Positions 17,462-56,468 of a stretch of DNA of 64,000 bases are shown in pieces. The DNA lies in the NCBI GenBank assembly GCA_965218815.1, contig CBDCLX010000002.1:2918176-2982175 (forward strand). The letters are read 5' to 3'. The stretch is from Bdellovibrionales bacterium (GTDB lineage Bacteria > Bdellovibrionota > Bdellovibrionia > Bdellovibrionales > JAGQZY01). Made by a program: the position numbers and the translations under genes. A model generated the notes under the pieces. The model had not been told where the DNA came from, ran no database searches, and worked only from the letters and a program-made list of their open reading frames with translations. Every line of letters starts with the position of its first letter. The first letter of the stretch is position 1.

Positions 17462-18058
17462 ATGATAAGAAAAATCAATGACTTAGCTGATATTTACCCA
17501 GGGCAATCCATTCGTGGAAAAATAAACCATAAACCTGGTGGTGAGTATTGCATTGTCCAGATGAGGGATGTTTCACCTTCCAGGGGCTTTCAGAAGGCCA
17601 ACCTGTGCCGGATGGACCTCAAGTCTGGAACTCCAAAATTGATAAAAAAAGGGGACCTCCTTTTCATTTCAAAAACCGGACCTGGAACCTCCCCCTTCAG
17701 TATTGTTGTGAAAGAGGAAATCAAAAATCTTATCGCCTCACCCCTTTTTTATATCATTCGGGTCAAAAGCAAAGAAGTTCACCCTGAATACCTCAGTTGG
17801 TACATCAATTTCAGTTCCCAAAGTCGAAGATTTTTTAAAAAAAATGCCATGGGAACCATGGTTTTAAATGTTAGAAAAGAGACTCTTTCTGAAATGGAAG
17901 TTATTTTACCACCTCTTTCCATTCAGGAAACATTTGTTGAATTGATAAAACTTGCTTCCAAAGAGCATCAAATCATGGATAAAATCTATCAAAAAAGAAA
18001 ACAGCTTATGAACTCAATAATCACAAATTCCTTTTCCAGAGCAGGAGAACAAATATGA
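17462..18058 (+). CDS. hsdS: Type I R-M specificity subunit, half-size (single TRD)
   Basis: 198 aa with one target-recognition domain plus one conserved helix (LPPLSIQETFVELIKLASKEHQIMDKIYQKRKQL). ATGA overlap with hsdM. Confidence 0.8.
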   Translation: MIRKINDLADIYPGQSIRGKINHKPGGEYCIVQMRDVSPSRGFQKANLCRMDLKSGTPKLIKKGDLLFISKTGPGTSPFSIVVKEEIKNLIASPLFYIIRVKSKEVHPEYLSWYINFSSQSRRFFKKNAMGTMVLNVRKETLSEMEVILPPLSIQETFVELIKLASKEHQIMDKIYQKRKQLMNSIITNSFSRAGEQI

Positions 18059-19563
18059 CGAAAACCACAAAAGTCACCCAGGAGGAAGTGAACCAAATCC
18101 TATGGAAAGCCTGTGATACCTTTCGGGGGATTTTAAACTCCGCTGATTATAAAAACTATATTCTCCCCATGCTTTTTTTAAAATACATCTCCGATACCTG
18201 GGATGAAAAATATGAAAAGATCAAAGCGGAGTACAAAGGAAATAAGAAGCGAATCCAGTCACGACTGAAAAGAGAACGCTTTGTTATCCCTGAAGGTTGC
18301 CTTTTCAAAAACCTCTACGACAAAAGAGAGAAATCAAATGTCGGGGAACTCATCAATACAGCCCTTGAAAAAATTGAAGATGCAAACAAAGAAAAGCTTG
18401 GTGGTGTTTTTAGAAACATAGACTTTAACTCTGAAGCCAAACTGGGGCAGACAAAGGATCGAAACGCCCGCCTGAAACATTTGCTTGAGGATTTCAACCA
18501 CCCAAAGCTCAACCTGAAAATGAGCCATATAGGAAAGCTTGATATTATTGGCAATGCCTATGAGTTTCTCATCAGTCGGTTTGCAGCCAGTGGCGGACAA
18601 AAGGCCGGTGAGTTCTACACTCCGGCGGAAGTCTCAGACCTTATTGCAAGGCTTGTTGAACCACAGAGGGGGGACCGGATCTGTGACCCGGCCTGCGGTT
18701 CAGGCTCCCTGCTTTTTAAATGTGCCAACCAGCTTCTTAAAAAAGGGGAAAAAGACTTTCATCTCTACGGTCAGGAAATCAATGGGGAGACCTACGCCCT
18801 TGCCAAAATGAATATGTTCTTGCACGGGGTGGATAACTCAAAGCTTGAGTGGGGGGATACCATCAGAAACCCCAAACTCATACAGTCCAGGACCACAATA
18901 AAATTTGAAGTGGTTGTGGCCAATCCTCCCTTTTCCCTTGATAAATGGGGTCATGAGGAAGCCTCAAACGATCCTTTTAAGAGGTTTCACCGGGGGATCC
19001 CACCAAAAACAAAGGGGGATTTTGCCTTTATCTCACACATGGTTGAGACCATAACGGAAAACAACGGAAGGGTTGGGGTTGTGGTCCCCCACGGAGTGCT
19101 TTTCAGGGGCTCCACTGAAGCAAAAATCAGACAAAAGCTCATTGAGGAGAACCTTCTTGACACTGTTATCGGCCTTCCAGCCAATTTGTTTTTTGGCACA
19201 GGAATTCCCGCAGCCATTCTTGTTTTCAAGAAAAACAGGAAGGATAACTCTGTTTTCTTTGTTGATGCCAGTTCCGAATACCAGGACGGGAAAAACCAGA
19301 ACAAACTCAGGGAACAGGATATAGAGAAAATTGTAAGAGCCTTCAAAAAAAGAAAAGATGTGGACAAATACGCTTACAAAGCCAGTCTCAGGGAAATCAA
19401 GGAAAATGATTTTAACCTCAACATCCCAAGATATGTGGACACCTTTGAAGAGGAGGAGGAGATCGACATCAAAGCCGTCCAGAAAGAAATTGAAGGTTTG
19501 GAGTCAGAACTTACAAAAGTCCGCAACCAAATGGACAAATACCTCAAGGAGTTGGGGCTGTGA
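18055..19563 (+). CDS. hsdM: Type I R-M DNA methyltransferase subunit
   Basis: HsdM_N-like N-terminus (LWKACDTFRG...YILPMLFLKYISD), SAM motif DPACGSGSLL, catalytic VVANPPFS. Confidence 0.95.
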   Translation: MTKTTKVTQEEVNQILWKACDTFRGILNSADYKNYILPMLFLKYISDTWDEKYEKIKAEYKGNKKRIQSRLKRERFVIPEGCLFKNLYDKREKSNVGELINTALEKIEDANKEKLGGVFRNIDFNSEAKLGQTKDRNARLKHLLEDFNHPKLNLKMSHIGKLDIIGNAYEFLISRFAASGGQKAGEFYTPAEVSDLIARLVEPQRGDRICDPACGSGSLLFKCANQLLKKGEKDFHLYGQEINGETYALAKMNMFLHGVDNSKLEWGDTIRNPKLIQSRTTIKFEVVVANPPFSLDKWGHEEASNDPFKRFHRGIPPKTKGDFAFISHMVETITENNGRVGVVVPHGVLFRGSTEAKIRQKLIEENLLDTVIGLPANLFFGTGIPAAILVFKKNRKDNSVFFVDASSEYQDGKNQNKLREQDIEKIVRAFKKRKDVDKYAYKASLREIKENDFNLNIPRYVDTFEEEEEIDIKAVQKEIEGLESELTKVRNQMDKYLKELGL

Positions 19564-20723
19564 GAAAAAAGAGGAAAGCAAAAAAGAAGGAGAAAGCGAT
19601 GGTTAAAAAGACAACCCAAGCTTCGACCATTCGATCATCTGCGGCTGAATACTTGACCTTTGTAGCCGCCATTGGCGATTCGGAATCCAGTGTTGAGATG
19701 CGTTATGAAGATGAGAATATCTGGCTCACGCAAAAGATGATGGCAACCCTGTATGGCGTTTCGGTTTCTGCAATCAACCAGCATTTAAAGCGGATATTTG
19801 CGGATAATGAGTTGGATGAAAGCTCAGTTATTAAGCAATACTTAATAACTGCCACAGATGGAAAAAACTACAATACGAGGCATTACAACCTGCAGGCCAT
19901 TATTGCCGTTGGTTTTAAGATTGAAAATGAACGTGCCGTTCAGTTCCGTAAATGGGCCAACCGTATCGTAAAGGATTACACCATTCAGGGTTGGACGATG
20001 GATGTGGAGCGTCTCAAAAAAGGCGGTAGCATTCTGGACAACGATTTCTTTGAACACCAGCTTGAAAAGATCAGAGAAATCAGGCTTTCCAAACGCAGGT
20101 TCTATCAGAAAATCACCGATATTTATGCAATGTCATTGGATTACGATTCTACCGCAACTGCAACGAAACGCTTCTTCTCTGCTGTTCAAAACAAAATGCA
20201 CTACGCCGTTCATGGCCAGACTGCTGCTGAGGTCATTGTGAATCGTGCCGATCACAAAAAGGAGAAAATGGGCTTGACCAATTGGGAGGGTACACCAGAA
20301 GGCAAAATCCACAAGTACGATGTAGCCATTGCTAAAAACTACCTGTCTGAATATGAATTGGCACAAATGCAGCGGATTGTATCGGCCTATTTAGATATGG
20401 CTGAAATGCAGGCCATGCGTAAAATCCCCATGACCATGGCCGACTGGGAGGAACGCTTAAGTGGCTTTCTGAAATTATGGGATCGTGAAATTTTAAAGGA
20501 TGCTGGCAAGGTGAGTGCCGAAATTGCCAAAACCCATGCAGAAAGTGAATTTGAAAAATACCGCATTGTTCAAGATCAACTTTATGAATCGGACTTTGAC
20601 AAACAACTAAAAGCACTTGAAGTCCTTGAGAAGGAAATAACAAATCATAAAGGGCAACGCCCTGAATCTACAGAAGAGGATGGGGTCTTATCAAGAAAAA
20701 AACCGCAAGAGGAGAGAGAGTAG
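19560..20723 (+). CDS. rhuM: RhuM-family protein
   Basis: YEDENIWLTQKMMATLYGVSVSAINQHLKRIF...NLQAIIAVGFKIENERAVQFRKWAN is typical RhuM. The real start may be the ATG at 19599. Confidence 0.85.
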   Translation: MRKKRKAKKKEKAMVKKTTQASTIRSSAAEYLTFVAAIGDSESSVEMRYEDENIWLTQKMMATLYGVSVSAINQHLKRIFADNELDESSVIKQYLITATDGKNYNTRHYNLQAIIAVGFKIENERAVQFRKWANRIVKDYTIQGWTMDVERLKKGGSILDNDFFEHQLEKIREIRLSKRRFYQKITDIYAMSLDYDSTATATKRFFSAVQNKMHYAVHGQTAAEVIVNRADHKKEKMGLTNWEGTPEGKIHKYDVAIAKNYLSEYELAQMQRIVSAYLDMAEMQAMRKIPMTMADWEERLSGFLKLWDREILKDAGKVSAEIAKTHAESEFEKYRIVQDQLYESDFDKQLKALEVLEKEITNHKGQRPESTEEDGVLSRKKPQEERE

Positions 20724-20869
20724 AAAGTGAGATTGAGAAATACCGAATTGTTCAGGATCGGTTGTTTGAATCTGATTTTGATAAGGAAATAAAAAGTATT
20801 GAGAAGAAAGTCTTATTGAAAGAAGACAGCCATAAAGTAAAGAGTAAGGAAAAAGAGAATAAAAAGTGA
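20723..20869 (+). pseudogene. Orphan 3' remnant of a second rhuM-like gene
   Basis: Reads ESEIEKYRIVQDRLFESDFDKEIK... and parallels 20541-20620 (ESEFEKYRIVQDQLYESDFDKQLK) of the intact gene. It has no start codon and is out of frame with rhuM. Confidence 0.6.
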
Positions 20870-21015
20870 TTTTTGAAAAAAGCTGATAAAATGTTGTTAT
20901 TATATTACAACAAACCATTTATTATATTGACGGTTAATAATATAAACTATTGAAAATAAAGAATAAAAATGTATTGTTTTTTAATTACAACATTTTTCTG
21001 GCAATCCACCAAATA

Positions 21016-21032
21016 TTGTAATAATATTACAA
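21016..21032. promoter_or_regulatory. Operator-like palindrome TTGTAAT-AAT-ATTACAA in front of the XRE gene
   Basis: Perfect 7-3-7 palindrome, 15 bp upstream of the RBS/ATG (21047). A near copy, TTGTTAT-TAT-ATTACAA, lies at 20894-20910, and a further ATTACAA lies near 20985. Confidence 0.4.
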
Positions 21033-21046
21033 AAAAAGGAGAGCTT

Positions 21047-21418
21047 ATGACTTTTGGAGAATTATTTAAAAAACTGAGGATCAGACTGGGGCAGACCTTG
21101 CGTCAGTTTTGTGAGGAAAATGACTTTGACCCGGGAAATATTTCCAAATTGGAAAGAGGACTTTTACCGGCTCCACAATCGGAGAAAAAGCTCAGATCTT
21201 ACACGAAAGCTCTAAGCATTCGTCCGGGAGATGATGAATATATCGAGTTTTTTGATCTGGCAGCAGTGTCCAACAAAAATTTTACAGTCAAAAACATTGA
21301 AAATCAGGACTTATTAAACAAACTTCCGGTATTGTTCCGCACATTGGATAAAAAAGGTCTCACGGAAGAAAAGCTTGAAAAAATCATCAAAATTGTTAGG
21401 GATGAGGCAAGTGAATAA
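21047..21418 (+). CDS. XRE-family helix-turn-helix regulator
   Basis: FGELFKKLRIRLGQTLRQFCEENDFDPGNISKLERG is an HTH_3-type motif. AAAGGAGAG RBS before the ATG at 21047. Confidence 0.8.
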   Translation: MTFGELFKKLRIRLGQTLRQFCEENDFDPGNISKLERGLLPAPQSEKKLRSYTKALSIRPGDDEYIEFFDLAAVSNKNFTVKNIENQDLLNKLPVLFRTLDKKGLTEEKLEKIIKIVRDEASE

Positions 21419-21770
21419 ATATATCAGCTACGAAAAGATAGAAAAACATAAAGACATTATCAGATCCATCACCACATTGGGACAGTGGAAGAATTATTTA
21501 TTGGGTCAGGGAATGGGAAGGGCCATTTATGAGATTCAGGCTGATAATTTTGCAGGATGCCTGTTAATGCCCCAACCGGAAGTCATCCAAAAATTTCATA
21601 TTCAGAAAACCAAAGCCATTGAAAAATTTGAAACTGCCGACATGACTAGACCTGACGATAAAACTTTAATTTCATTTATAGCCAATGAAGCTGCCCGTCA
21701 GTTTAATGTTTCTCCAAGAGCCGCCGAAATTCGTTTATTAAAAGTTTTGCCTCTTCACCAGAATTTGTGA
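21375..21770 (+). CDS. ImmA/IrrE-like (DUF955-type) protein lacking an obvious HEXXH; 3' end replaced by the ISL3 insertion
   Basis: EIQADNFAGCLLMPQPEV resembles the conserved E..AN.FA..LLMP region of ImmA/IrrE. It overlaps the XRE gene. Its last 7 sense codons and stop lie inside the IS. Confidence 0.5.
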   Translation: MKKSSKLLGMRQVNKYISYEKIEKHKDIIRSITTLGQWKNYLLGQGMGRAIYEIQADNFAGCLLMPQPEVIQKFHIQKTKAIEKFETADMTRPDDKTLISFIANEAARQFNVSPRAAEIRLLKVLPLHQNL

Positions 21771-23254
21771 ATGAGTGGAGGTTCAGGTAATCTTCCAAGG
21801 GAATGATATAAAGCTATTTTAATGGATTTGTACTCCCTAAAACCGTAAGATTTTCTCATAGTCAGTTTTACTTTGTTGTTTAAACCCTCTACAATCCCCG
21901 ATGAAAATTGTTTTTTGGCCCTAAACCAATTGAGAATGAGATCCTTATGTCGTCGAATCATCTTGGCTTCATGTTTCAAAGGCTCTATCCGGGAACGCAT
22001 GACTTTGGTTGTCCAGCGAGCCAGAAACTTATCCGCCCATGAGGGGGATAAATAATCCCAAAAGAATTGGAACTCTTCTTTTAGTAAATAGGCCCTGACG
22101 CTCCTGAGGTTGTATTGTAAAAGTTTCTTCAAACCAACCTCCTGTTTTTCTGTCAGATTCTCTGAGTGCTTTAATAAAAGCCACCTGGAGTTTGTTAACA
22201 CAGGGTCATATCCATCCGCTTTCATCTGACGATGCTCTCCCGCTCTCACTTTATCTATTGCTTTGTTAATCCGAGCAACGATATGAAAACGGTCCAGGAT
22301 ATGAGTGGCTTGAGACACTCGATCCTTTATAACCTTCAAATAAGGTTTCCACATATCTGAGCAAACGTATTCAATAAGTTGTGTTCTTCTTGTCCCCAGC
22401 ATATCAAAGAACTTTGAAAAAGTTTCCTCTGTCCGCTCTTTTCCAATCCAAAGTAAACGGACACATCCGGAGTTGATCTGATAAACTAAAGTTAGATATT
22501 TATGCCCCTTTTTCCACTGAATCTCATCAACTCCAATAGCCCTGACACTCTCTAAACAGCGATGGGAAAGGCCCCACTCAACGATAAACTCCACAGAGCG
22601 AAAAACCTTCCCCCAACTTGTTCTAAACCGAACTGACACCTCTTTCCATGACAGCACCTTGGCCCAATTTGCCAGAAATTGCATATAGACTTTGGTTAAT
22701 TGGTTTTTTCCATCACTCCATGGAGTTTTTTCAACTTTAACTCCACACCAAGAGCAGTTGACTCGTCTCATTTTATAACAGAAGAACACGGGAATTCCCC
22801 AGATAGGAATAAATTCAAATTTTCGTGCCTTCGGGGATGTATCATAAATAGAAGCCTCCTGATGGCATCCCGAACAAATGGGGATACCATTTTTTCGAGG
22901 GTGAATTTGAACATGAATACAAGTTTCCCCGCCCTCGGTGAATAAAGTTATTCTCCCGTAAACAAAAGACTTGAATTTGTAACATTTATTTAGGATAGTC
23001 TTTACCAGCATCTTTTCGCCCTTTTTTGGTTGTTGTTTTCTCAAATTATGATTTACTGGAATCTGGCGGGAGATGCTATTTCAATATGAATCTTAATGCA
23101 CTAAAAATGTGATTCGTTGAGCGGGGATGCTCAACGAATTGGGGTGTGGGGCAGAGCCCCATATCAGCCAGGATGGCTGTCCTTATTTATTCCACGAAAT
23201 GACATTTAGAAGTTAAAAAGGGCTTTTTTTATCCACATCTTCTGGTGAATATCC
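21749..23254 (-). mobile_element. ISL3-family insertion sequence (1506 bp) with 8-bp target-site duplication
   Basis: Imperfect terminal inverted repeats (gcctcttcaccagaatttgtgaatgag versus the reverse complement of the right end, ggatattcaccagaagatgtggataaa; 19 of 27 positions match). Flanked by direct repeats AAAGTTTT at 21741-21748 and 23255-23262. Confidence 0.85.
21755..23044 (-). CDS. ISL3-family transposase
   Basis: 429 aa. N-terminal zinc-finger region (CSGC...CSWCG) and a DDE_Tnp_ISL3-like core (IGVDEIQWKKGHKYLTLV...SDMWKPY...DRFHIV). Confidence 0.93.
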   Translation of the reverse strand: MRKQQPKKGEKMLVKTILNKCYKFKSFVYGRITLFTEGGETCIHVQIHPRKNGIPICSGCHQEASIYDTSPKARKFEFIPIWGIPVFFCYKMRRVNCSWCGVKVEKTPWSDGKNQLTKVYMQFLANWAKVLSWKEVSVRFRTSWGKVFRSVEFIVEWGLSHRCLESVRAIGVDEIQWKKGHKYLTLVYQINSGCVRLLWIGKERTEETFSKFFDMLGTRRTQLIEYVCSDMWKPYLKVIKDRVSQATHILDRFHIVARINKAIDKVRAGEHRQMKADGYDPVLTNSRWLLLKHSENLTEKQEVGLKKLLQYNLRSVRAYLLKEEFQFFWDYLSPSWADKFLARWTTKVMRSRIEPLKHEAKMIRRHKDLILNWFRAKKQFSSGIVEGLNNKVKLTMRKSYGFREYKSIKIALYHSLGRLPEPPLIHKFW

Positions 23255-23524
23255 AAAGTTTTAGGATTGGAGAGAACTTAAAATGATTGATTTATACCAA
23301 AGACCATTTGTTTTTCATGCTTTTTTCATAGAGAAATTCCATGGAAATTCAAACATAATCAGTATAATTTGTGTAACAAAAATTTTTAACATGGCAAAAA
23401 AAGATGGTGGGAGAACACTGCTTGAAAAATCCCATGAAGAAGAAACCTACAAAAAACCCCCGGCCTTTAAACCCATCAGCTATAAATTCGCTAGGAAGTT
23501 GAAGTTATGAAAAGGAGATATTGT

Positions 23525-24139
23525 ATGAAAAAATTCATTTTAAAAACCTTTACTTTGTGTTTGATAAGTTTAACATTTTTCACAGAAATGACTTTTGCAC
23601 AGGAAAGTGATTCCAATAAAAATACAATCACACAAACAATAAATGATTCCAATATTAAATCATCCGAGGAAACAGCAAATGGTTCTGGTAAAACATATTC
23701 TAAACAAACAAATGATAAGTCAAACATAGAACAAAATAGAAATAATAAAAATGATAATAAAAAAAGTCGTTGCTATTTTTTTATAATACAGGCAATATTT
23801 TTATTTTTAGTATTTTTTGGTTACCCTTTATTTTGTCTTCTCAAATATTACTTCATAAAAGAAAATAAAGATTCTTCTCCTTTGAGAGGACTTGATCTTC
23901 CCAAAGGTTCGGTAAGGGCCATGATTGCCATAGCTATCATAGGTTCTTATCTTATCACTCTTTCTATAGGGTCTTTAGTGATTTCGGATGATTATTTTGA
24001 TAAAATTATTGCGGCTTTTGGAGGTCTTGTCGGAGCTGTCGTTGGGTTTTATTTTGGAAGCAGGAACAGTGATCGTGGTGATGGCAAACCAGATACGAAA
24101 AGTAAGGATAATAAGAACCCTAACCAGGATGCTAATTAA
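23525..24139 (+). CDS. Membrane protein with signal peptide, N/K/S-rich exported region and C-terminal TM helices
   Basis: MKKFILKTFTLCLISLTFFTEMTFAQE signal-like N-terminus and AAAAGGAGA RBS before the ATG at 23525. TM segments (FFIIQAIFLFLVFFGYPLF; MIAIAIIGSYLITLSIGSLV; AAFGGLVGAVVGFYFG). Confidence 0.6.
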   Translation: MKKFILKTFTLCLISLTFFTEMTFAQESDSNKNTITQTINDSNIKSSEETANGSGKTYSKQTNDKSNIEQNRNNKNDNKKSRCYFFIIQAIFLFLVFFGYPLFCLLKYYFIKENKDSSPLRGLDLPKGSVRAMIAIAIIGSYLITLSIGSLVISDDYFDKIIAAFGGLVGAVVGFYFGSRNSDRGDGKPDTKSKDNKNPNQDAN

Positions 24140-24163
24140 AATTTACTTAGTGAGGTAAAATAG

Positions 24164-26695
24164 ATGCTTGATGAAAATAAAACGGATTATTTAATAAATG
24201 CTTTGCAAGCAGGAAAAGTTTCTCTTTTCTTAGGATCAGGTTTTAACGAAGGTTCTCTGACAAACAAAGGTCAGTCAATAGCCGACAACCAAACATTAAT
24301 AAAGAAACTTTGGGAATTCAATGGATACTCTGGAGAGCCTAACCAGGAAGATACATTAACTTTTGTTTATCAGTCCACACTTACAAAAAACCCTAATAAA
24401 TCAGAATTGTCAAATCTTCTGAGAGAGAACTTGGAAGTCAACAGTTATCCTGAGTGGATGAAAATATTACCTCTTTTTTTTTGGAGAAAGATTTATTCAA
24501 CAAACATTGACAACCTTGTGGAAAAAATTTATTCAGACTCTAGCTCCAGTAGAGTTAATTCTCAAATTTTAAATCCAGTAAATGGTCAAACTGATGACTA
24601 TTGTGAACGTGATACGACTTTTCATAAACTAATAAAAGTTTCTTTACATGGCACCTTGGGGAGTGCTCCTGATAAAATCACTTTTGGAATTTTTCAATAT
24701 GCAGCAAGATCTAATGAAAAATATGATCCATGGTATTATGATTTCGTGTATGAATATTCAAATTTTCCATTTATTTTTATTGGTTCAAAATTAGATGAGC
24801 CTATATTTTGGCAGTATTTAGAAGCAAGAAAAGAAAAACATGGTAATCAGGAAAGAAGACCTCGGTCATTTATTATAACTCCAGATATTTCTCCTGCACG
24901 CAAGTATATCTTATCAAAATATAATATTCATCATATTCCAAAAAAAGCAAAAGACTTTTTCCTTTGGTTAAATGAGTTGTTCCCAGAAAAACCAAATCGA
25001 ATGGATGTAATCAAAAAGTCTGAACCTGATCTTATTCTAATTGCAAAAGCTTTAGCTCAAAATGTATCTCGTAAAACTATCAAATCTCTAAAAAGTTTTC
25101 TTGATGAATTCCAAAATGTTAAACCAGTTAAACCAGATCCTGCACATCGTAAAACATTTTTTCATAGTGGAGCAGTGCCAACTTGGCAGGATATTGCACA
25201 TAAGCTGGATGCAAAAAGAGATATTACGGATGAAATTTATGATAATATTTTTTCGATAAAAGAAGATAACAAACCAAAATACATTTTTGTTCATGGAACT
25301 GCCGGTTCAGGGAAAAGTACAGTAGCAAAAAGATTAGCATGGAATCTATCTTCTAACCAATTTCAAGTTTATTTCAATGAAAGCAGTCATATTCCAATTT
25401 TTTCTTTAATCAAAGAGTCAGTTGAATATATTGGTGGTCATCCTATTTTTATTATTGATGATGTTCATAAAAATATTCAATCAAATAAAGACTTTATTAA
25501 AAAATTGAATGACATGAATTTTCAAGCATCTGTAATTGCTTTTTCAAGATCATCAAGTGTAGATAATTTAATTGTTAGTCTTGAAAATTCAGTAGAATTA
25601 AAAGAATACTCCTTAAAAGACCTGTCTCTTTCTGAAATAAAGAATATCTTATCAGTTCTTGATGAAACTGGAATGTTAGGTAAACTTCAGGGGCTACCCA
25701 TGGAGAAAAGGATTGAAGAATTTCAAGTAAGAGCCAAAAAACAAATTTTAGTGGCTATGAAAGAAGCAACACAGGCTAGAGCTTTTGGTGAAATTATTAA
25801 GCAAGAATACAAAGAAATTGAAAATGAAGAAGCTCGCAAACTTTACCTTTTAACTTCCTTAGTAACTGCTCATGGATATTCACTACCAAAAACATTTTTT
25901 ATAGGAGCCATGGATATTGCTCCAAATAAATGTTTAAACTTTTTAAATAGAGACCTGAGAGGTCTTATTATTGATATGAATGAAAAATTTATTGCCAGAC
26001 ACCCTCTTATAGCTGAGCATATCGTATCAACAGTTGAAGACCTACAAACATTAAAGAACTGTTATCTTGATATTCTGAGCAGATTGTCTTCTTTACTTGG
26101 TTTAACATCTAACAAACATGATAAAAATTTTAAAATGTACAAGTCTTTAATTAAGCATGAACTTTTGATAAAATATTTTGGAATAGAGGAATTATATTTT
26201 GTTAGAGAGATATATGACAGTATAAAAGAGAAACGCAAACATGATTTTCACTTTTGGCTTCATTATAGCAATCTTGAACTTGAAAATGACTCCCTGGATT
26301 TGGCTAAAACCTATATCAGTTCAGCAAAATCTTTGTTGGAATCGGCAAATCAGTCAAATGATTTTGTTGAACTTACTGAGATTCAAATTGATATGAAGAA
26401 AGCAATCTATTGTCCTGAATCTGTCGAAGCCAATAATTTATATGAAATCTCCTGTGAAAGAATTAAAATAAATCAGGAGAATTTTTATTTGAAAGCCAAA
26501 AATCAAATGCCCAATACATGGGTGCAATCAAAATTAGGGAATATTTGTGAAATAATACAAGATGGAACTCATTTTTCTCCAAAATCAAAAAGTGGTCCAT
26601 GCAAGTATATCACCTCAAAAAATATTCGGTTTGGAAAGCTAGATATAACAAGTCTTTCTTATATTTCTCAAGAGGAGATGTCCCGTGCAATTTAG
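24164..26695 (+). CDS. SIR2-like / P-loop STAND NTPase / helical-repeat protein (AVAST type 5-like); the ORF runs in frame into the hsdS start
   Basis: SIR2_2-type motifs (VSLFLGSGFN, IYSTNIDNLVE, KVSLHGT, FIFIGSKLDEP). Walker A VHGTAGSGKST (about 25295-25320), Walker B IFIIDDVH, long alpha-helical C-terminus. The last 62 aa are an HsdS N-terminus. Confidence 0.8.
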   Translation: MLDENKTDYLINALQAGKVSLFLGSGFNEGSLTNKGQSIADNQTLIKKLWEFNGYSGEPNQEDTLTFVYQSTLTKNPNKSELSNLLRENLEVNSYPEWMKILPLFFWRKIYSTNIDNLVEKIYSDSSSSRVNSQILNPVNGQTDDYCERDTTFHKLIKVSLHGTLGSAPDKITFGIFQYAARSNEKYDPWYYDFVYEYSNFPFIFIGSKLDEPIFWQYLEARKEKHGNQERRPRSFIITPDISPARKYILSKYNIHHIPKKAKDFFLWLNELFPEKPNRMDVIKKSEPDLILIAKALAQNVSRKTIKSLKSFLDEFQNVKPVKPDPAHRKTFFHSGAVPTWQDIAHKLDAKRDITDEIYDNIFSIKEDNKPKYIFVHGTAGSGKSTVAKRLAWNLSSNQFQVYFNESSHIPIFSLIKESVEYIGGHPIFIIDDVHKNIQSNKDFIKKLNDMNFQASVIAFSRSSSVDNLIVSLENSVELKEYSLKDLSLSEIKNILSVLDETGMLGKLQGLPMEKRIEEFQVRAKKQILVAMKEATQARAFGEIIKQEYKEIENEEARKLYLLTSLVTAHGYSLPKTFFIGAMDIAPNKCLNFLNRDLRGLIIDMNEKFIARHPLIAEHIVSTVEDLQTLKNCYLDILSRLSSLLGLTSNKHDKNFKMYKSLIKHELLIKYFGIEELYFVREIYDSIKEKRKHDFHFWLHYSNLELENDSLDLAKTYISSAKSLLESANQSNDFVELTEIQIDMKKAIYCPESVEANNLYEISCERIKINQENFYLKAKNQMPNTWVQSKLGNICEIIQDGTHFSPKSKSGPCKYITSKNIRFGKLDITSLSYISQEEMSRAI

Positions 26696-27691
26696 TGATG
26701 TTCTTCTCACAAAGGACGGGGCTAATACCGGGAATGCGTCATTAAATACAATAGAAGGTGAATTTAGTTTATTATCAAGTGTTGCTTTATTAAGAGCAGA
26801 TAATAAGAAAAGCTGCAATGAATTTCTTTTACAATATATATTGAGTCCGAAAATGCAATATATTATTAAAAATGAGATGATCGGACAGGCCATAACTAGA
26901 CTAACTTTAAAAAGAATAAAATTGCTTCCAATCATCCTCCCTCCCCTCACAGAACAAAAAAAGATTGCGGAGATTCTTTCAACCTGGGATCGGGCTATTG
27001 AACTGACTGAAAAATTGATTGAAGCCAAGGAGAAGAAAAAAAGAGGACTGATGCAACAGCTCCTCACTGGCAAAAAACGCTTCCCTGGGTTTAGTGGGAA
27101 GTGGGAGAAAAAGAAATTAGATGAGATCGTTGAGTTTTATAAGGGAAAAGGGTTATCCAAAAAAGATATATCAAAAGATGGTTCATTTAAATGTATTCAC
27201 TATGGAGAACTATTTACCAAATACAATGAAAATATAGAAAATATACTCAGTTTTACAGAACATAGAAAAAATATGTTTTTCTCAAAAAAAATGATGTTCT
27301 CATGCCAACCTCAGATGTTACACCTACAGGTCTTGCTACTGCCAGTTGTATCAACGAGGATGATATAATTTTAGGAGGAGATATTTTGATTATTAGATCT
27401 GACAAACGTGTTTTAAATGGAAAATTTCTTTCTTATTTTATAAGGTTTAATAAAAATAAAATTATGCGTTTAGTCTCAGGAACAACCGTTTATCATATTT
27501 ACGGATCTGATGTGAAAACTTTTCAAATATTGCTTCCTTCTAATGAAGAACAAAATAAGATCGTATCAACCCTCTTAAATTCCAATGAAGAGATAAAAAT
27601 TCTTAAAAAGAAATTGAAAAAATTGCATGAATCAAAGAAAGGACTGATGCAACAACTTTTAACAGGAAAAAGAAGAGTAAAGGTCCTTTAG
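26507..27691 (+). pseudogene. hsdS: Full-length (two-TRD) type I specificity subunit broken by two 1-nt frameshifts
   Basis: Three consecutive ORF pieces (26507-26695, 26685-27368, 27302-27691) read as one HsdS: MPNTWVQSKLGNICEII..., central LPPLTEQKKIAEIL...GLMQQLLTGKKRF, C-terminal LPSNEEQNKIV...GLMQQLLTGKRRV. The shifts lie at a C3 run (about 26679-26681) and an A8 run (27284-27291). Confidence 0.8.
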
Positions 27692-27701
27692 GAGATATTT
27701 C

Positions 27702-27935
27702 ATGTCAAAAAGCCGAACATTTTCCTTATATCTTCTCAAAAAGGGCTATAATGCAAGTAATGCATTAAAGCCTGAGAACTCACTCGAAGATATTTCTGAG
27801 AAATGTTCTGCCCTTCCTCAAGGAACCACTCTATATGTTATGGATAAGCCCCCAACCTCCATCGGACGTTTTGGTATGAATAAAAAATATTTTATGAAGA
27901 ATTTCTCATTGAAAGGAGATATTGTTTATGAATAA
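27702..27935 (+). CDS. Hypothetical 77-aa ORF, possibly a truncated remnant
   Basis: The N-terminus (TFSLYLLKKGYNASNALKPENS...) faintly recalls the N-termini of the TIGR04141/DUF6119 'sporadically distributed' proteins. That is a weak recollection only. It overlaps the next gene. Confidence 0.3.
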   Translation: MSKSRTFSLYLLKKGYNASNALKPENSLEDISEKCSALPQGTTLYVMDKPPTSIGRFGMNKKYFMKNFSLKGDIVYE

Positions 27936-28362
27936 AAAAGAGTTAAATACAATAGAAGTGGCAAAAAGTAACTTTAAGAAGAAACTGCTGAGTTTTAAAA
28001 AATCTTTGCAGTCTTTTAAAGAAATTTATTCTTCCTATTTGGAAGAGCCGAATCAAAAAGTTTCCCAAATGGCTTTGATTAAAAGTTTTGAAATTACTTT
28101 TGAATTAAGCTGGAAAACCCTACAGTCTTTTTTAAAGTCCCAGGGCTATATTGAAGAGAACTCACCAAAAGGTGTTATAAAATCAGCCTTTAACAAAGAC
28201 ATTATTGAAAACGGGCAATTATGGATAGATATGCTGGATTCCAGAAATAGATTATCCCATGTTTATGACGAGAGTCTGTTGAATGAAGTGATTCAAAAGA
28301 TTTCCAGAAATTATTTAGAAGAAATAGAAAAACTTTATAAGAAGTTGGAAGAGAAAGACTGA
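27922..28362 (+). CDS. HEPN-type nucleotidyltransferase substrate-binding protein (HI0074 family)
   Basis: FEITFELSWKTLQSFLK...MLDSRNRLSHVYDE carries the R(X4-6)H HEPN motif and the HI0074-family pattern. Confidence 0.85.
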   Translation: MFMNKKELNTIEVAKSNFKKKLLSFKKSLQSFKEIYSSYLEEPNQKVSQMALIKSFEITFELSWKTLQSFLKSQGYIEENSPKGVIKSAFNKDIIENGQLWIDMLDSRNRLSHVYDESLLNEVIQKISRNYLEEIEKLYKKLEEKD

Positions 28363-28664
28363 TGGCTTTTGGTTTATCCCAGGAAACACTTGAACAGTTA
28401 AGAAGTGTGTTTGAAAAATATCCTGAGATTACCCAGGTAAAAATCTATGGTTCACGGGTGACAGATCATTGTAGAAGAGGTTCAGACATTGATCTGGCTT
28501 TTTTTTCTGAATCTGAAAAAAATCTGTCATCCAGTCTTTCATGGGATCTGGATGATCTTCCAAGCCCTTATTTGTTTGATTTGGTCCATTACAATAAGCT
28601 GAACAAATGTTCGTTAAAAGAAGAAATAGATAAATATGGCAAGATTATTTATAAGAAAAATTGA
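28362..28664 (+). CDS. Minimal nucleotidyltransferase (MNT, HI0073-like)
   Basis: KIYGSRVTDHCRRGSDIDLAF matches the GS...D.D polymerase-beta-type NTase motif. The ATG overlaps the stop of the HEPN gene. Confidence 0.85.
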   Translation: MAFGLSQETLEQLRSVFEKYPEITQVKIYGSRVTDHCRRGSDIDLAFFSESEKNLSSSLSWDLDDLPSPYLFDLVHYNKLNKCSLKEEIDKYGKIIYKKN

Positions 28665-28839
28665 GTCCTTGATCTTCTCTAAAACTATAGCAGAGTTTGG
28701 AAGATCAGAGGTTTGTTTCCAGAAAATTGAAAAAGAAGTCACAGGGTCTATGATGTTCGGAATAAAGTTCGGTATAAAGAGAATTTTAGAAGAATTAAAA
28801 AACAGCACTAATCAGATAGAAACCAAAAGGAGACAGCCT

Positions 28840-29694
28840 ATGGTCAGCTTAAAAGAAATCCTCCAACTCCACAGCCAGTGGCTTAAAGTTTGCCCACTGC
28901 CTGAAGAGAACCATCAGGCTTTGTGGAAATGGATTCGTATGCGGTTTAACCATACCTCAAACCATATTGAGGGAAACACTCTCACCTACAATGAAACCCA
29001 ACTGCTTCTCATTCACGGGCGGACTTCAGGGGATCATAAGCTCCGGGAGTATGAAGAAATGAAAGCCCACAATGTGGCCTTTAGCCACATGATGAGGCTT
29101 TCTCAGGAAAAAAGACCTATCAATGAAGGAGATATTAGGGATCTAAATAAAATTTGTCTGAAAGAGCCTTTTTATAAGATGGCCAGGACTCCTGACGGGG
29201 AATCCACACGGAAAAAAATCATCCCTGGAGAGTACAAAACACAACCCAATCATGTTCTTACAGAAACAGGGGAGATTTTTCAGTTTGCCATACCTGAAGA
29301 AACACCATCACTGATGGCGGAACTTGTTCAATGGATGGGTGAATGGCTTAAACAGAGCTTGGAGAATCAACACAAAAATCTTGTTTCTTTTTTAGCTGAA
29401 CTTCATAAGCGTTTTATACTGATTCATCCTTTTGATGATGGAAACGGGAGAGTGGTTCGTCTTTTAATGGGCTATGTTCTTGTTCGCCTGGATTTTCTCC
29501 CTATCATTATTCATGACAGAAAAGAATACATTAAAGCCATACAGTTTTCAGATGCCGGAGACATAAAACCCCTTGAGGAGTTATTTGCCACCAATATAAT
29601 CATGATGCTTGAAAAAGGTCTTCTTGCCAAAAAAAGTCAGATAAATCTTGATGAACCTCTAATGGAGGTCAGGGTTCTTAATTCAGAAAGTTAA
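28840..29694 (+). CDS. Fic-family protein (copy A)
   Basis: HPFDDGNGRVVR Fic motif. The ATG at 28840 has an AAAAGGAGA RBS. About 90 percent identical (by eye) to copy B at 51455-52291. Confidence 0.88.
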   Translation: MVSLKEILQLHSQWLKVCPLPEENHQALWKWIRMRFNHTSNHIEGNTLTYNETQLLLIHGRTSGDHKLREYEEMKAHNVAFSHMMRLSQEKRPINEGDIRDLNKICLKEPFYKMARTPDGESTRKKIIPGEYKTQPNHVLTETGEIFQFAIPEETPSLMAELVQWMGEWLKQSLENQHKNLVSFLAELHKRFILIHPFDDGNGRVVRLLMGYVLVRLDFLPIIIHDRKEYIKAIQFSDAGDIKPLEELFATNIIMMLEKGLLAKKSQINLDEPLMEVRVLNSES

Positions 29695-31785: not shown

Positions 31786-32130
31786 GATGTATTCCCACCC
31801 CGTTTTCCATGTTTTTTCTGATCTTTTTGCTTTACGAATTCCATTTTGTGTTCATTTGAATGGGGTTTTTCTTGAGAACTTATGATTCCAAACCTGATTT
31901 GATTGGAAAAGTGAATTTTTGAATAAGGGAATCCATCACAGAAAACCCGGGTTCTCCGTCAGAGTTCTCCAATGAAGAAGATTCATGAGAAATCGAAAAC
32001 CTCCTCCTCTTCCGGTGGCCCCCTTGGAGAACAGGGCTCTGGAATTCCTGACTCCAGTCCCAAGTGGGTGAGAATCTTTTTGATGACTTCAGGTCCCTCT
32101 ATGGAAGAGATGACTTTGAGTTTCCCCCCA
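31747..32130 (-). mobile_element. IS91-family remnant A (3' end of tnpA plus the end downstream of tnpA)
   Basis: Near-identical to 38086-38469 of the intact copy. Homology stops abruptly after tttcccccca at 32130. Confidence 0.85.
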
Positions 32131-35100
32131 GCATCCCCCATGGTTCACAAATTGTTACCCTTAATGCTTCCGGTGTGACAGGATCGGATCAGGTTCGCTA
32201 TGCCAACTTCAACGGCAGACTCAATATTATGCAAAATGTTTTAAACAGACCCTTGAGGGACTATATGCTCCCCCGTGTTGATCCAGCCTCCACAGCTATG
32301 GTGAACCCCACACAGACAACCACTGTTAGTAACACAAACGCTGGTGTGACTTTAACAGTTCCCCGGAACACGGCCATGAATAGTGACGGAACCATATACT
32401 CAGGCCCCCTGTCCGTTGATATGGTTCCAACAGATGCCACCCCAAGGGAATTGCCGGAAGAGTTTCAGCCAAGCTTTATTATCACCATTCAACCCACAGG
32501 GGTGAGGTTTAATAATCCTGTGCCCATAACCTTTCCAAATACTGATAATTTACCCGCAGGAAGTGTGACTGAGCTTTTCTCTCTTTCAGAAAGGGGAGGT
32601 TTTGAGAGTGTTGGCTTTGGCAGAGTATCTTCTGATGGTCGGACTATCACTACAATAGCAGGGGGTGTGAGAAGTGCCAGTTGGCATTTTATGACTGTCA
32701 TAGAACCAAGGCTTGAAAAAATCGGTCCACCGGATTCCGGTGATGGAGACAACAATGATAACGATCCTGATATGTGTGAGGGAAGTCTTTTGTGTGTGGC
32801 TTCAGGGGCATTGGGTGAGGACCATGAACTTCCCGGTTTTGTCAGTCATGGGGTCCCCATTACAATGAAAATGGGTTATAAGAATCCCCCTTCCCTTGAG
32901 TTCAGTCCCATACAATTCAGAGTTGTTTATGTCACACGCAGAGTTCCCATTGATCCCAGGAATCCCGGTAGAACTATTGCCATAAATCCACTTCCGGTTC
33001 CAAGAATGACTGTAAATACAACCATAGGTGGTTCAACTTCTCCAATGACTTCCTTTAATACCACAGATCTATTAAGCAGACCGGATACCCCCTTTGGTCT
33101 TGTCAAACACATTGAAACCCGTGGGATGGGTACAGGTATTCATTCCATTGGACTCTCAGTGGGTCTGGGTGCCTCCATGAACGGAGGGGGATCAAGAACA
33201 ATGAAAAAAAGTGTTGATTATCCTGTGATCTCTCCTGACACGGAGTTCGGCATGGGTTGGAGGTTTGAGGGGCTTCACAAGCTCTATGGAATGAACGGTG
33301 ATCCGGTGAGTTCCACATCCAGGAAGATCATGCTTGTCTATGGAAACTTCAAGTTCCTTGTTTTTGACAGAAACGAGGATGGCACCTACACTTCTCCCCA
33401 AGGGGATTATTCCACCCTTTCCTTTATTCCCGAACCCTTTGGGGGTTACAGCAGGGTTGCCAAGGATGGCACCAACTATGTCTTTGACCGACACGGAAAA
33501 CTTGCGGGTTTTCTTGACAGGTACAACAGAAGAACCACATACAACTATGATACCAGCAGTGGTAAACTCACAGAGATTTTGTATAGTAACGGAAGCAGGA
33601 CCTCTTTTGTTTACGGCTCTGACGGTTATATTGACACTATTACTGACCCCATGATGCGGGTCACACGTTTTAGTCATGATTCCACAGGTCATCTTTTGCA
33701 AATTATTGATTCTGACAATACAACCCGGACCTTTGACTATGGGGCAGATCACAGACTTCTCTCCCAGGTGGATAAAAAGCAAAGGGCCAAGAACTATGGT
33801 TATGATGAGATGGGTAACGTGGTTCAGGTCATACGTCCTGACAACACTCAGGTTGGATTGACCTCAAAGGTGACAAAGCTGACAACCCAGGGAGGGGATT
33901 CCTCTATGGTTATGGTTGATAATGACAGCAGGTTTTCCAACTTTTCAGATGCCAGGGGGAATGTGACAAAAATAGAGACCAACGCTTTTGGTTCCTCTAT
34001 GAAGTCCATAGACCCTATGGGTCAGACGGTGAGTTATACAAGAGATGAAGACAACAACATCACACAAAGCACTGACAAAAGAGGAAATGATGTTACAAGA
34101 GCCTATGATTCTATGGGTAATTTAACTTCCTTTAGAGATGCACACTTCAGACAATACAGTTATGGGTATATGTCAAACCCGGCAGATAACTTTCATCAGA
34201 TCACATCAAACAGAGATGCCAGGGGGAACACAACAACCTACAGTTACGACAGGCTTGGAAATTTGACAAGAATGATGATGCCAAACAGCAGGTCCACCAG
34301 TTTTACCTACAATGGGTATTTGATGACCTCCATGACTCGTGCTGAGGACATTCAGGATGTTACAACCCACTTTGAACATGATGCCAATGGGAACGTGACT
34401 ATTGTCAGGGATAATGGGAGACTGATTATAAGCCAAAGGACCTATGACAGTGCGGGAAATGTTTTAACCAGCACGGATGCCCTTGGGAATACGACCACCT
34501 ACACTTATGATTCCATGAACAGACTCTCAACCCAAACGGATGCCAGGGGGGGAGTTGTTCAATACGACTATGACAACATGGGAAATTTAACCTTCATCAC
34601 AGATGAGAGAAACCATATCACCTCTTTTGAGTACGACGGGATGGATCGTCTGGTTAAGGTCACAGACCCAAGGCTTTTCACTGAAGAGTTTGAATACGAT
34701 GCCAACGGAAATCTTATTGAAAAAACAGACAAGAATGGGGACACCATCATCAGTCAGTATGATGTGTTAAACAGGATGGAAAATAAAACCTTTCCCGATG
34801 AAAGCACTTATGTTTTCACTTATGATCCAAATAATAATCTTCTCACAGCCACAGACTCTGATTCAGATATTTCCTTCACCTATGATGAAAGATCAGATCG
34901 TTTGGCTCAGGCTTCAACAGTCAACAACAAAACAGTTCCCGATGTGGATATTTTCTACTCCTATGATGACAACGATAACATAACATCAGTTTATGATTCT
35001 GTGGCTGGAGCCGATCAGATCTTCTATGGTTATGATGAGAGTAACAGACTCATTAGAATTGGTCGCTCATCCACTGATCCTTCGTCTATTAGGTTTAGCT

Positions 35101-55491: not shown

Positions 55492-55552
55492 AAGTCATTT
55501 ACAGGATTCAATCAGACCGGATCAATGGAATAAGGATTGAGAAAAGGAAGTT

Positions 55553-56356: not shown

Positions 56357-56468
56357 CTTTTCATAGTTCGAGTCTTTTTCATCCATTAGAGAAGCTAATC
56401 TCACAGTTTATACTGGTCGTGTTTGAAATTTCATGGAATTTCTCTATGAAAACAGCGTGAAAAACAAA

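What the first reader, a model, noticed from the sequence alone, without database searches (positions are those of the whole stretch)
23525..26695. Membrane protein plus SIR2-STAND protein wedged into the R-M locus: candidate two-gene antiviral module
The 843-aa ORF combines three parts. The first is SIR2_2-type motifs (VSLFLGSGFN, STNIDNLVE, SLHGT, FIGSKLDEP). The second is a P-loop NTPase (GTAGSGKST and IFIIDDVH). The third is a long helical region. That is the effector-switch-sensor layout described for SIR2-STAND (AVAST type 5-like) defence proteins. A gene for a signal-peptide protein sits 25 bp upstream in the same AT-rich block; it has an N/K/S-rich exported stretch and three TM helices. 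As far as I know, a membrane partner is not part of the described single-gene SIR2-STAND systems. The pair sits between an ISL3 element and hsdS.
Basis: partly seen in the sequence, partly recalled or inferred. Interest (0 to 1): 0.72.

Follow-up and report, generated by a model that had tools for sequence, protein, structure and literature searches.

The report
Truncated Avs5-like gene beside unrelated membrane gene
The big gene is a distant relative of the known single-gene antiviral sensor Avs5 (SIR2-STAND), it has lost its tail and now runs into a broken restriction gene, and the membrane gene next to it is an unrelated passenger rather than a partner.

Summary
A 204/210-aa gene for a signal-peptide protein with three TM helices (23525-24139) lies 24 nt upstream of an 843-codon ORF (24164-26695). 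That ORF has a SIR2_2 domain with the catalytic N114/D116/H162, and a STAND NTPase with Walker A and B motifs.

Two corrections change the picture.

1. Only residues 1-768 of the ORF belong to the SIR2-STAND family. Full-length relatives are 825-870 aa and continue for another 85-105 residues. Here the ORF has no stop codon and reads through 13 leader codons into the first 62 codons of hsdS, which is itself frameshifted twice. The gene is therefore 3'-truncated. In EfAvs5, loss of the C-terminal sensor, or even of its last six residues, abolishes defence.

2. The two-gene module fails its own test in both directions. None of 83 homolog loci carries the membrane gene or any conserved neighbour. 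The 24 independent loci with membrane-family genes carry no SIR2-STAND gene. Close membrane homologs sit instead just upstream of hsdS in type I R-M operons, often after RhuM or PD-T7-4/RAZR.

The family is homologous to EfAvs5 along its whole length (PDB 9JAP: profile E 1.7e-33, Foldseek E 5e-29).

Verdict: a divergent, probably disabled Avs5-like gene in a decaying defence island. Interest is low to moderate.

The parts
23525..24139 (+). Gene for a 204-aa secreted/membrane protein (an alternative ATG at 23507 gives 210 aa). It has a signal-like N-terminus, a low-complexity stretch rich in N, S and K, three TM helices, the conserved loop motif LPxGSVRAM and a C-terminal GAVVGFYFGSR motif. It matches no known family.
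   Evidence: No Pfam, NCBIfam, PADLOC or PHROG family reaches significance.
24164..24937 (+). SIR2_2-type NADase effector domain of the Avs5-like gene (residues 1-258). Catalytic N114 and D116 (STNIDNL) and H162 (SLHGT) are present.
   Evidence: Pfam SIR2_2 E 1.5e-9. Invariant columns in alignment A1. Window N114 aligns with EfAvs5 chain N161, which is native N141, the catalytic residue.
25160..26080 (+). STAND NTPase (NOD) region. Walker A is GTAGSGKST (K384) and Walker B is IFIIDD (D432). Helical and winged-helix subdomains follow.
   Evidence: Pfam nSTAND_NTPase5 E 4e-23 at residues 333-469. The alignment to 9JAP is continuous from residue ~357 to ~725. AF2 model pLDDT is 79.
26081..26467 (+). 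Remaining part of the C-terminal helical sensor (residues ~640-768, including the conserved DxHFWLxY motif). Homology to every relative ends here. The last ~85-105 residues found in full-length relatives are absent.
   Evidence: tblastn with the C-terminus of P0002 matches only up to nt 26467, and no remnant of the lost tail is found elsewhere in the window.
26468..26506 (+). Junction. These 39 nt match no relative of the gene and are read in frame as 13 codons (INQENFYLKAKNQ). They are presumably the former hsdS leader. There is no in-frame stop.
26507..27691 (+). hsdS (type I specificity subunit) with two compensating frameshifts, one at ~26660-26690 and one in the A8 run at 27284-27291. Its first 62 codons form the tail of the 843-codon ORF, whose stop is at 26693-26695.
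   Evidence: Pfam Methylase_S on both fragments. PADLOC and NCBIfam hits on ORF residues 777-841. Three-frame reading and tblastn with the HsdS proteins of L005 and L111.
21749..23254 (-). ISL3-family insertion sequence with a 429-aa DDE transposase. It has imperfect terminal inverted repeats and an 8-bp target duplication, AAAGTTTT, at 21741-21748 and 23255-23262. It is absent from the related contigs L109 and L110.
20969..21748 (+). An XRE-type HTH gene and the remnant of an M78 (ImmA/IrrE, CapP-like) peptidase gene, on the same strand upstream of the pair. The window copy of the peptidase lacks 244 bp that encode the HExxH motif, and the ISL3 element interrupts its last codons.
17462..20723 (+). 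Upstream part of the type I R-M locus: a half-size hsdS (17462-18058), hsdM (18055-19563) and rhuM (19560-20723).

Best explanation
The locus is a type I R-M-anchored defence island that has been rearranged and is partly decayed.

The large gene. It is a divergent homolog of Avs5 (AVAST type 5, SIR2-STAND), which is a single-gene NLR-like sensor. In intact Avs5 proteins the C-terminal helical sensor recognises a phage protein. The ATP-bound NOD then drives oligomerisation or filamentation, the SIR2 domains are brought into an active dimer, and NAD+ is hydrolysed, which aborts the infection. This mechanism is established for EfAvs5 and PaAvs5 and is inferred here by homology.

The window copy. 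It keeps the SIR2 catalytic residues and the Walker motifs. It has lost the last ~85-105 residues of the sensor and lacks a stop codon. It therefore reads through 13 leader codons into the first 62 codons of a frameshifted hsdS. It is most likely inactive or impaired as a sensor (inferred from EfAvs5 and PaAvs5 deletion mutants).

The membrane gene. It is not a partner. It belongs to a separate, uncharacterised three-TM family whose close members sit immediately upstream of hsdS in type I R-M operons. The Avs5-like gene probably landed between the membrane gene and hsdS in this lineage.

Other damage. The ISL3 insertion, the 244-bp deletion in the upstream M78 peptidase gene and the two hsdS frameshifts are further signs of decay.
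For: Shown by tool results:
- Domains and catalytic residues are present.
- Homology to EfAvs5 (9JAP) runs along the full length: profile E 1.7e-33 covering SIR2, NOD and the helical region. Foldseek ranks 9JAP first at E 5e-29 and the 9NC9 AVAST5 filament second at E 4e-19.
- The family is sizeable and single-gene. There are 410 cluster representatives at E<=1e-30 and 111 relatives in 185,579 species genomes across many phyla. Full-length ORFs are mostly 825-870 aa. No neighbour is conserved.
- Truncation: the best-scoring matched stretch of every listed hit ends by query residue 771, while the matched full-length proteins continue for another ~75-105 residues. Residues 782-843 are HsdS. AF2 pLDDT is below 50 for residues 778-843.
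- Membrane-gene contexts: L005 reads hsdM-rhuM-MEM-hsdS-hsdR-YgjP. L111 reads rhuM-MEM-65aa-hsdS-hsdR-YgjP. L107 reads PD-T7-4-MEM-hsdS fragments-hsdR. L004 reads rhuM-PD-T7-4-MEM. L108 reads PD-T7-4-MEM-type II R-M. No SIR2-STAND gene occurs in any of them.

From the literature:
- EfAvs5 N141A, K379A, D426A, deletion of the C-terminal sensor and deletion of residues 844-849 each abolish defence (PMC11897194).
- A PaAvs5-1 mutant lacking residues 769-828 is described as an inactive sensor mutant (10.1101/2025.07.08.663546).
Against: - The pair is tightly spaced (24 nt, same strand, no terminator-like site between the genes). It is conserved in two related contigs, L109 and L110, where an HTH and an intact M78 gene lie directly upstream. 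Co-transcription and a lineage-specific functional link therefore cannot be excluded.
- The PADLOC Avs5 model does not hit the window protein at E<=0.01 and only weakly hits two relatives. Membership in Avs5 in the strict sense is debatable.
- Loss of function of the truncated protein is inferred from distant homologs and was not tested.
- The junction and the frameshifts could not be checked against reads.
Confidence: 0.75

Rival explanations
1. One reading: the membrane protein and the SIR2-STAND protein form a dedicated two-gene antiviral module. For example, the membrane protein could recruit or gate the NADase at the envelope.
For: - The genes are 24 nt apart on the same strand in the same AT-rich block.
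- The adjacency is kept in related contigs L109 and L110.
- PaAvs5-1 is reported to localise to membrane-associated infection sites.
Against: - No co-occurrence outside the window's own lineage: 0 of 83 SIR2-STAND loci carry the membrane gene, and 0 of 24 independent membrane-family loci carry a SIR2-STAND gene.
- Upstream neighbours of the homologs are heterogeneous and none has three TM segments.
- Characterised Avs5 proteins work as single genes.
- Close membrane homologs have their own recurrent context, upstream of hsdS.
Confidence: 0.07
2. The chimeric ORF is a functional new fusion: an Avs5 lacking its C-terminus joined to the HsdS N-terminus. If the two hsdS frameshifts are sequencing errors, the fusion would carry a whole HsdS. 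The replaced sensor end would be neo-functionalised.
For: - The fusion is in frame.
- The SIR2 and NOD motifs are intact.
- The two hsdS frameshifts compensate each other, and one lies in an A8 run, which could be error-prone or phase-variable.
Against: - No relative among 2006 hits shows such a fusion.
- AF2 gives the tail pLDDT below 50.
- Other long genes in the window are unbroken (1480, 1065, 502 and 493 aa), so systematic indel error is unlikely.
- In EfAvs5 even small C-terminal deletions abolish defence.
Confidence: 0.05
3. The three-TM protein is itself an autonomous defence or R-M accessory gene of type I R-M islands. This is compatible with the best explanation, but it is a separate claim about function.
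For: - Six of 8 independent contexts of close homologs lie inside R-M or defence clusters. In four of them (the window, L005, L107 and L111) the gene sits just upstream of hsdS. In four (L004, L005, L107/L108 and L111) it follows RhuM or PD-T7-4/RAZR.
- One more distant member sits upstream of cas3-cas5d, and another next to an integrase.
Against: - L006 and L112, and several metagenome loci, are not obviously defence contexts. In three loci the following gene is DUF6765.
- The sample is small and comes mostly from one set of ENA metagenomes, so the loci may be phylogenetically close.
- No known family and no confident fold are available.
Confidence: 0.3

Closest known systems
Avs5 / AVAST type 5 (SIR2-STAND), e.g. 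EfAvs5 (PDB 9JAP) and PaAvs5 (PDB 9NC9)
   Same: - The order of parts is the same: an N-terminal SIR2-type NADase, a central STAND NOD, and a short C-terminal helical sensor.
- Family members have the same length (~850 aa).
- The catalytic Asn and the Walker A Lys and Walker B Asp are conserved.
- It is the best match in the PDB by both sequence profile and fold.
- It is a stand-alone gene found in defence islands.
   Different: - Identity is only ~16%.
- The best Pfam NTPase model is nSTAND_NTPase5, whereas PaAvs5 is reported to carry nSTAND3.
- The PADLOC Avs5 HMM does not detect the window protein.
- The window copy lacks the last ~85-105 residues and is fused to hsdS.
Other SIR2 NADase defence effectors (ThsA, DSR2, KomC/HAM-SIR2, SIR2-HerA)
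   Same: The SIR2 domain has the same fold and the same catalytic Asn and His. Profile hits to KomC have E ~1e-14. Foldseek matches DSR2 and ThsA.
   Different: These proteins lack a STAND NTPase. They are activated by other routes: a signalling nucleotide, a tail-tube protein, or partner ATPases.
Passenger genes embedded in type I R-M operons (RhuM, PD-T7-4/RAZR, HepT-MNT, Fic)
   Same: In several operons the three-TM gene occupies the variable slot between hsdM and hsdS that hosts such passengers. The Avs5-like gene sits in that slot here.
   Different: The three-TM protein has no assigned family and no tested function. Unlike RAZR or RhuM, it is predicted to be a secreted/membrane protein.
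CapH/CapP-type (XRE HTH + M78 peptidase) regulators of immune operons
   Same: An HTH gene and an M78 peptidase gene lie directly upstream on the same strand. PADLOC gives capH E 3e-5 and capP E 9e-7.
   Different: - The scores are weak.
- In the window the peptidase has lost its HExxH motif and is cut off from the downstream genes by ISL3.
- Regulation of the pair was not tested.

Membership tests
Avs5 / SIR2-STAND (AVAST type 5) | N-terminal SIR2-type domain with the catalytic Asn (EfAvs5 N141) and His | tested here: met
   Pfam SIR2_2 E 1.5e-9, above the curated cutoff. N114 and D116 are invariant and H162 is present. N114 aligns with the catalytic Asn of 9JAP.
Avs5 / SIR2-STAND (AVAST type 5) | Central STAND NTPase (NOD) with Walker A Lys and Walker B Asp | tested here: met
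   nSTAND_NTPase5 E 4e-23. nSTAND3 scores 28.1 bits against a cutoff of 27.2. G378, G383, K384, S385 and D432 are invariant.
Avs5 / SIR2-STAND (AVAST type 5) | Complete C-terminal helical sensor domain (required for defence in EfAvs5 and PaAvs5) | tested here: not met
   Homology ends at residue ~768. Relatives continue for 85-105 more residues. The tail is HsdS-derived.
Avs5 / SIR2-STAND (AVAST type 5) | Detectable homology to experimentally validated Avs5 proteins | tested here: met
   Against 9JAP: family profile E 1.7e-33 and single sequence E 2.9e-10. Foldseek: 9JAP E 5e-29 and 9NC9 E 4e-19.
Avs5 / SIR2-STAND (AVAST type 5) | Recognised by the curated Avs5 model of a defence-system annotator (PADLOC) | tested here: not met
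   The window protein gives no Avs5 hit at E<=0.01. Relatives P0005 (E 1e-4) and P0002 (E 7e-3) give only weak partial hits.
Avs5 / SIR2-STAND (AVAST type 5) | Acts as a single gene, with no obligate partner | tested here: met
   No conserved neighbour in 82 loci. The commonest neighbours are methylases (9 loci), integrases (8) and HsdR (5).
Avs5 / SIR2-STAND (AVAST type 5) | Phage-triggered NAD+ depletion and anti-phage protection | not testable with these tools
   This needs expression, phage challenge and NAD+ assays.
Proposed two-gene module (membrane protein + SIR2-STAND) | The two gene families are neighbours in independent lineages | tested here: not met
   0 of 83 SIR2-STAND loci contain a membrane homolog. 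0 of 24 independent membrane-family loci contain a SIR2-STAND gene. The only other cases, L109 and L110, belong to the same lineage at 90-94% nt identity.
Type I R-M operon passenger (three-TM family) | Recurrent position between hsdM/rhuM and hsdS in type I operons | tested here: inconclusive
   Seen in L005, L107, L111 and the window, and next to other R-M or defence genes in L004 and L108. Not seen in L006 or L112. Only 8 independent contexts were examined.
ISL3 insertion sequence | DDE_Tnp_ISL3 transposase, terminal inverted repeats and an 8-bp target duplication | tested here: met
   Pfam E 2.6e-73. Inverted repeats at 21749-21772 and 23231-23254, with the AAAGTTTT duplication. The empty site is seen in L109 and L110.

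The most novel reading that the evidence does not exclude
The three-TM protein belongs to a previously undescribed family (core motifs LPxGSVRAM ... GAVxGFYFGSR). The family could be an autonomous defence or accessory factor of type I R-M islands. It is repeatedly encoded just upstream of hsdS and next to RhuM or RAZR. In this lineage it is co-transcribed with an Avs5-like gene under an HTH/M78 (CapH/CapP-like) switch.
Probability: 0.25. Interest if true: 0.5.

Novelty: new member of a known kind. Interest (0 to 1): 0.27.

Why it matters
The large gene extends the known Avs5 (SIR2-STAND) class to a divergent, widely distributed clade. This clade has 410 cluster representatives at E<=1e-30 and occurs in many phyla. 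At least one current defence annotator (PADLOC) does not recognise it, which is useful for annotation.

This particular copy is truncated and probably inactive. The suggested membrane partner, the only element that would have been new in kind, is not supported.

The modest residual value is the three-TM family that recurs inside type I R-M operons. It has no annotation and could be followed up cheaply by a neighbourhood survey.

Tried and rejected
- I looked for a remnant of DUF4145/PD-T7-4, the gene that precedes the membrane gene in L004, L107 and L108, upstream of the window's membrane gene. None was found.
- I looked for the lost 3' end of the Avs5-like gene elsewhere in the window. None was found.
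- I tried to place the membrane protein in a family with Pfam, NCBIfam, PADLOC and PHROGs, using the window protein and 16 homologs. Only sub-threshold noise came back (VanZ, ssl2009).
- The AF2 model of the membrane protein had pLDDT 64, too low for a meaningful fold search, so none was run.
- Scans of viral contigs gave no SIR2-STAND relative and only one distant membrane relative. Neither gene looks phage-borne.
- The exact products of the window's genes are not on record in the contig index. The source organism could therefore not be named. A weak hit to a spirochaete flagellar lytic transglycosylase model is only a hint.
- The intergenic sequences between the membrane gene and hsdS in L005, L107 and L111 show no obvious similarity to the window junction on inspection. 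The insertion event therefore could not be reconstructed at base level.
Full report
**1. What is in the sequence**

Two same-strand ORFs lie at 23507/23525-24139 and 24164-26695, 24 nt apart.

The upstream product is 204 aa from ATG 23525. That is the start used by homologs, and an AAGGAG precedes it. The protein has:
- a signal-like N-terminus ending ...TFA/QE;
- a 58-residue stretch rich in N, S and K;
- three hydrophobic segments at residues 87-105, 134-152 and 161-179.

AF2 gives helices at matching positions but only pLDDT 64.

The downstream 843-codon ORF matches Pfam SIR2_2 at residues 109-258 (E 1.5e-9) and nSTAND_NTPase5 at residues 333-469 (E 4e-23). It also has a marginal nSTAND3 hit. 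In an alignment with 11 relatives, N114, D116, G383, K384, S385 and D432 are invariant, and H162 is present. Both genes are about 31% GC, against 40% for the window.

**2. The ORF is a chimera**

- The last 62 residues, from M782 (nt 26507), are the N-terminus of a type I specificity subunit. This is shown by PADLOC Specificity_I hits and NCBIfam PRK09737 on residues 777-841.
- The alignment with relatives diverges after ...EISCERIK (residue ~768, nt 26467). All full-length relatives continue for another 85-105 residues that include a conserved DPYPFHV...W segment.
- In an exhaustive HMMER search of 1.84 billion representatives, the best-scoring matched stretch of every listed hit ends by query residue 771. 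The matched proteins nevertheless run ~75-105 residues further.
- In 80 genomic loci the corresponding ORFs are mostly 825-870 aa.
- No remnant of the missing tail occurs elsewhere in the window.
- The 39 nt between 26468 and 26506 match no relative of the gene. I take them to be the former hsdS leader. They contain no in-frame stop, so the ORF runs into hsdS.
- The ORF ends at 26693-26695 only because hsdS is frameshifted there. A second, compensating frameshift lies in an A8 run at 27284-27291.
- Other long genes in the window (1480, 1065, 502 and 493 aa) are unbroken. Generalised indel error is therefore unlikely, although I could not check reads.
- AF2 models residues 1-777 with reasonable confidence (mean pLDDT 79) and residues 778-843 with pLDDT below 50.

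**3. What the large gene is**

- A profile of the family finds EfAvs5 (PDB 9JAP) as by far the best solved relative, at E 1.7e-33. The alignment covers the SIR2 domain, the NOD and the helical region, including the DxHFWxQY motif.
- The window protein on its own gives E 2.9e-10 against 9JAP.
- Foldseek with the AF2 model ranks 9JAP first (E 5e-29) and the 9NC9 AVAST5 filament second (E 4e-19). SAMD9, DSR2, ThsA, Avs3/4 and Apaf-1 follow.
- Window N114 aligns with the EfAvs5 catalytic Asn. This is N141 in native numbering; the PDB chain carries a 20-residue offset.
- The family is sizeable. There are 410 representatives at E<=1e-30 and 1266 at E<=1e-10. A scan of one genome per species found 111 relatives across Bacteroidota, Acidobacteriota, Proteobacteria, Planctomycetota, Actinomycetota and other phyla.
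- The PADLOC Avs5 model misses the window protein and only grazes two relatives. I therefore call this a divergent Avs5-like clade, not Avs5 in the strict sense.

**4. The partner test**

That test is met.
- tblastn with 20 membrane-family proteins against 83 SIR2-STAND loci (6-8 kb flanks) found nothing better than E 0.007, and those weak hits were short chance matches.
- The nearest upstream same-strand ORFs range from 56 to 1408 aa, and none has three TM segments.
- Clustering all neighbours within 4 kb gave no family present in more than 9 of 82 loci. The recurrent families are Eco57I-type methylases, phage integrases, HsdR, N4/N6 methylases and serine recombinases. This is typical defence-island or mobile-element company, not a partner.
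- Conversely, none of the loci that carry membrane-family genes encodes a SIR2-STAND protein, apart from L109 and L110. Those two contigs are 90-94% identical to the window at nucleotide level and so belong to the same lineage.

**5. Where the membrane gene belongs**

Close homologs (40-50% identity; 20 proteins in 5.8 billion) have their own recurrent context:

| Locus | Gene order |
|---|---|
| L005 | hsdM-rhuM-MEM-hsdS-hsdR-YgjP |
| L111 | rhuM-MEM-65aa-hsdS-hsdR-YgjP-SLFN |
| L107 | DUF4145-MEM-hsdS fragments-hsdR-YgjP...ThsB_TIR |
| L004 | rhuM-DUF4145-MEM |
| L108 | DUF4145-MEM-type II REase-methylase |

- The DUF4145 proteins are PD-T7-4 (E 1e-73 to 1e-84). PD-T7-4 has been renamed RAZR and is a single-gene HEPN RNase defence protein (PMC13017515).
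- Two contexts, L006 and L112, are not R-M-linked.
- A broader family with the same core (LPxGSxRAM ... GFYFG) occurs in metagenomes in varied architectures. It is followed by DUF6765 in three loci and by cas3-cas5d in one.
- No library assigns the family a name.
- The simplest history is that MEM-hsdS was the ancestral arrangement and the Avs5-like gene came to lie between them in this lineage, losing its 3' end. This is inferred.

**6. The surrounding locus**

- The related contig L109 shows the pre-insertion state: hsdS-half, hsdM, HTH, an intact M78 peptidase (with LAHEMGHYVLH), a 41-aa ORF, MEM, then the Avs5-like gene.
- In the window, an ISL3 element (21749-23254, target duplication AAAGTTTT) sits in the last codons of the M78 gene. 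A 244-bp deletion removes that gene's HExxH motif.
- The HTH/M78 pair resembles the CapH/CapP regulators of immune operons, though only weakly (capH E 3e-5, capP E 9e-7; literature). It may once have controlled the downstream genes. This is speculative.
- hsdR and YgjP lie 22 kb away at 52294-56356, behind a second Fic paralog that is 88% identical to the one at 28636-29694. RHS, ankyrin, IS91-type transposase and deaminase genes lie in between.
- The island has therefore suffered several disruptive events.

**7. Mechanism and function**

For intact family members I adopt the Avs5 mechanism, which is established for EfAvs5 and PaAvs5:
1. The sensor recognises a phage protein.
2. The NOD drives ATP-dependent filament formation.
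3. The SIR2 domains are activated.
4. NAD+ is depleted.

In EfAvs5, deletion of the C-terminal sensor abolishes defence, and so does deletion of residues 844-849 alone. K792 is also needed. A PaAvs5-1 mutant lacking residues 769-828 is described as an inactive sensor mutant. The window protein lacks the region equivalent to EfAvs5 residues ~766-849. I therefore judge it probably non-functional as a sensor (inference, about 65-70%).

**8. Verdict**

- The domain reading of the large gene is right. It is a new, divergent member of a known kind.
- The copy in this window is truncated and fused to a broken hsdS.
- The proposed two-gene module is not supported.
- The residual novelty lies in the unannotated three-TM family that recurs in type I R-M operons.
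- Interest is 0.27.

Noticed in passing
window 26507-27691: hsdS carries two compensating frameshifts, one at ~26660-26690 and one in an A8 run at 27284-27291. The middle ~600 nt are out of frame. A half-size hsdS (17462-18058) sits upstream of hsdM and may be the working specificity subunit.
   Followed up: partly
window 21375-21748; L109 2731-2974: Relative to the related contig L109, the M78 (ImmA/IrrE, CapP-like) peptidase gene lacks 244 bp. The missing stretch encodes the HExxH motif (LAHEMGHYVLH). The upstream XRE HTH gene looks intact. If the pair regulated the downstream genes, the switch would now be stuck.
   Followed up: partly
window 28636-29694 and 51455-52291; 52294-56356: Two Fic paralogs are 88% identical. 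The second lies directly upstream of hsdR (52294-55491) and a YgjP-like peptidase gene (55553-56356). The type I operon therefore seems to be split by ~22 kb that carry RHS (32064-36506), ankyrin (36519-37883), an IS91-type transposase (38322-39797, minus strand) and a deaminase (44767-46236, minus strand).
   Followed up: partly
window 23294-23347 (+) and 56429-56482 (-): A 54-nt sequence is repeated at about 87% identity. One copy lies just upstream of the membrane gene and the other just downstream of the YgjP-like gene, in inverted orientation. Its nature is unknown.
   Followed up: no
window 20684-20812: The last ~42 codons of rhuM appear a second time, out of frame, just after the gene. 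In the related contig L109 rhuM is almost entirely deleted.
   Followed up: no
L006 6713-7096, L088 2829-4028, L091 1600-2187: In three loci the gene that follows a membrane-family member encodes DUF6765. This may be the real conserved neighbour of the broader family.
   Followed up: partly
L096 6926-10377: A distant membrane-family gene sits directly upstream of cas3 (HD-helicase) and cas5d, at the head of a type I-C-like CRISPR-Cas operon.
   Followed up: no
window 27702-28664: Between hsdS and Fic lie a 77-aa ORF with no family match and then a HepT-like/MNT (NTase_sub_bind + Polbeta) toxin-antitoxin pair. These are further passengers of the island.
   Followed up: no
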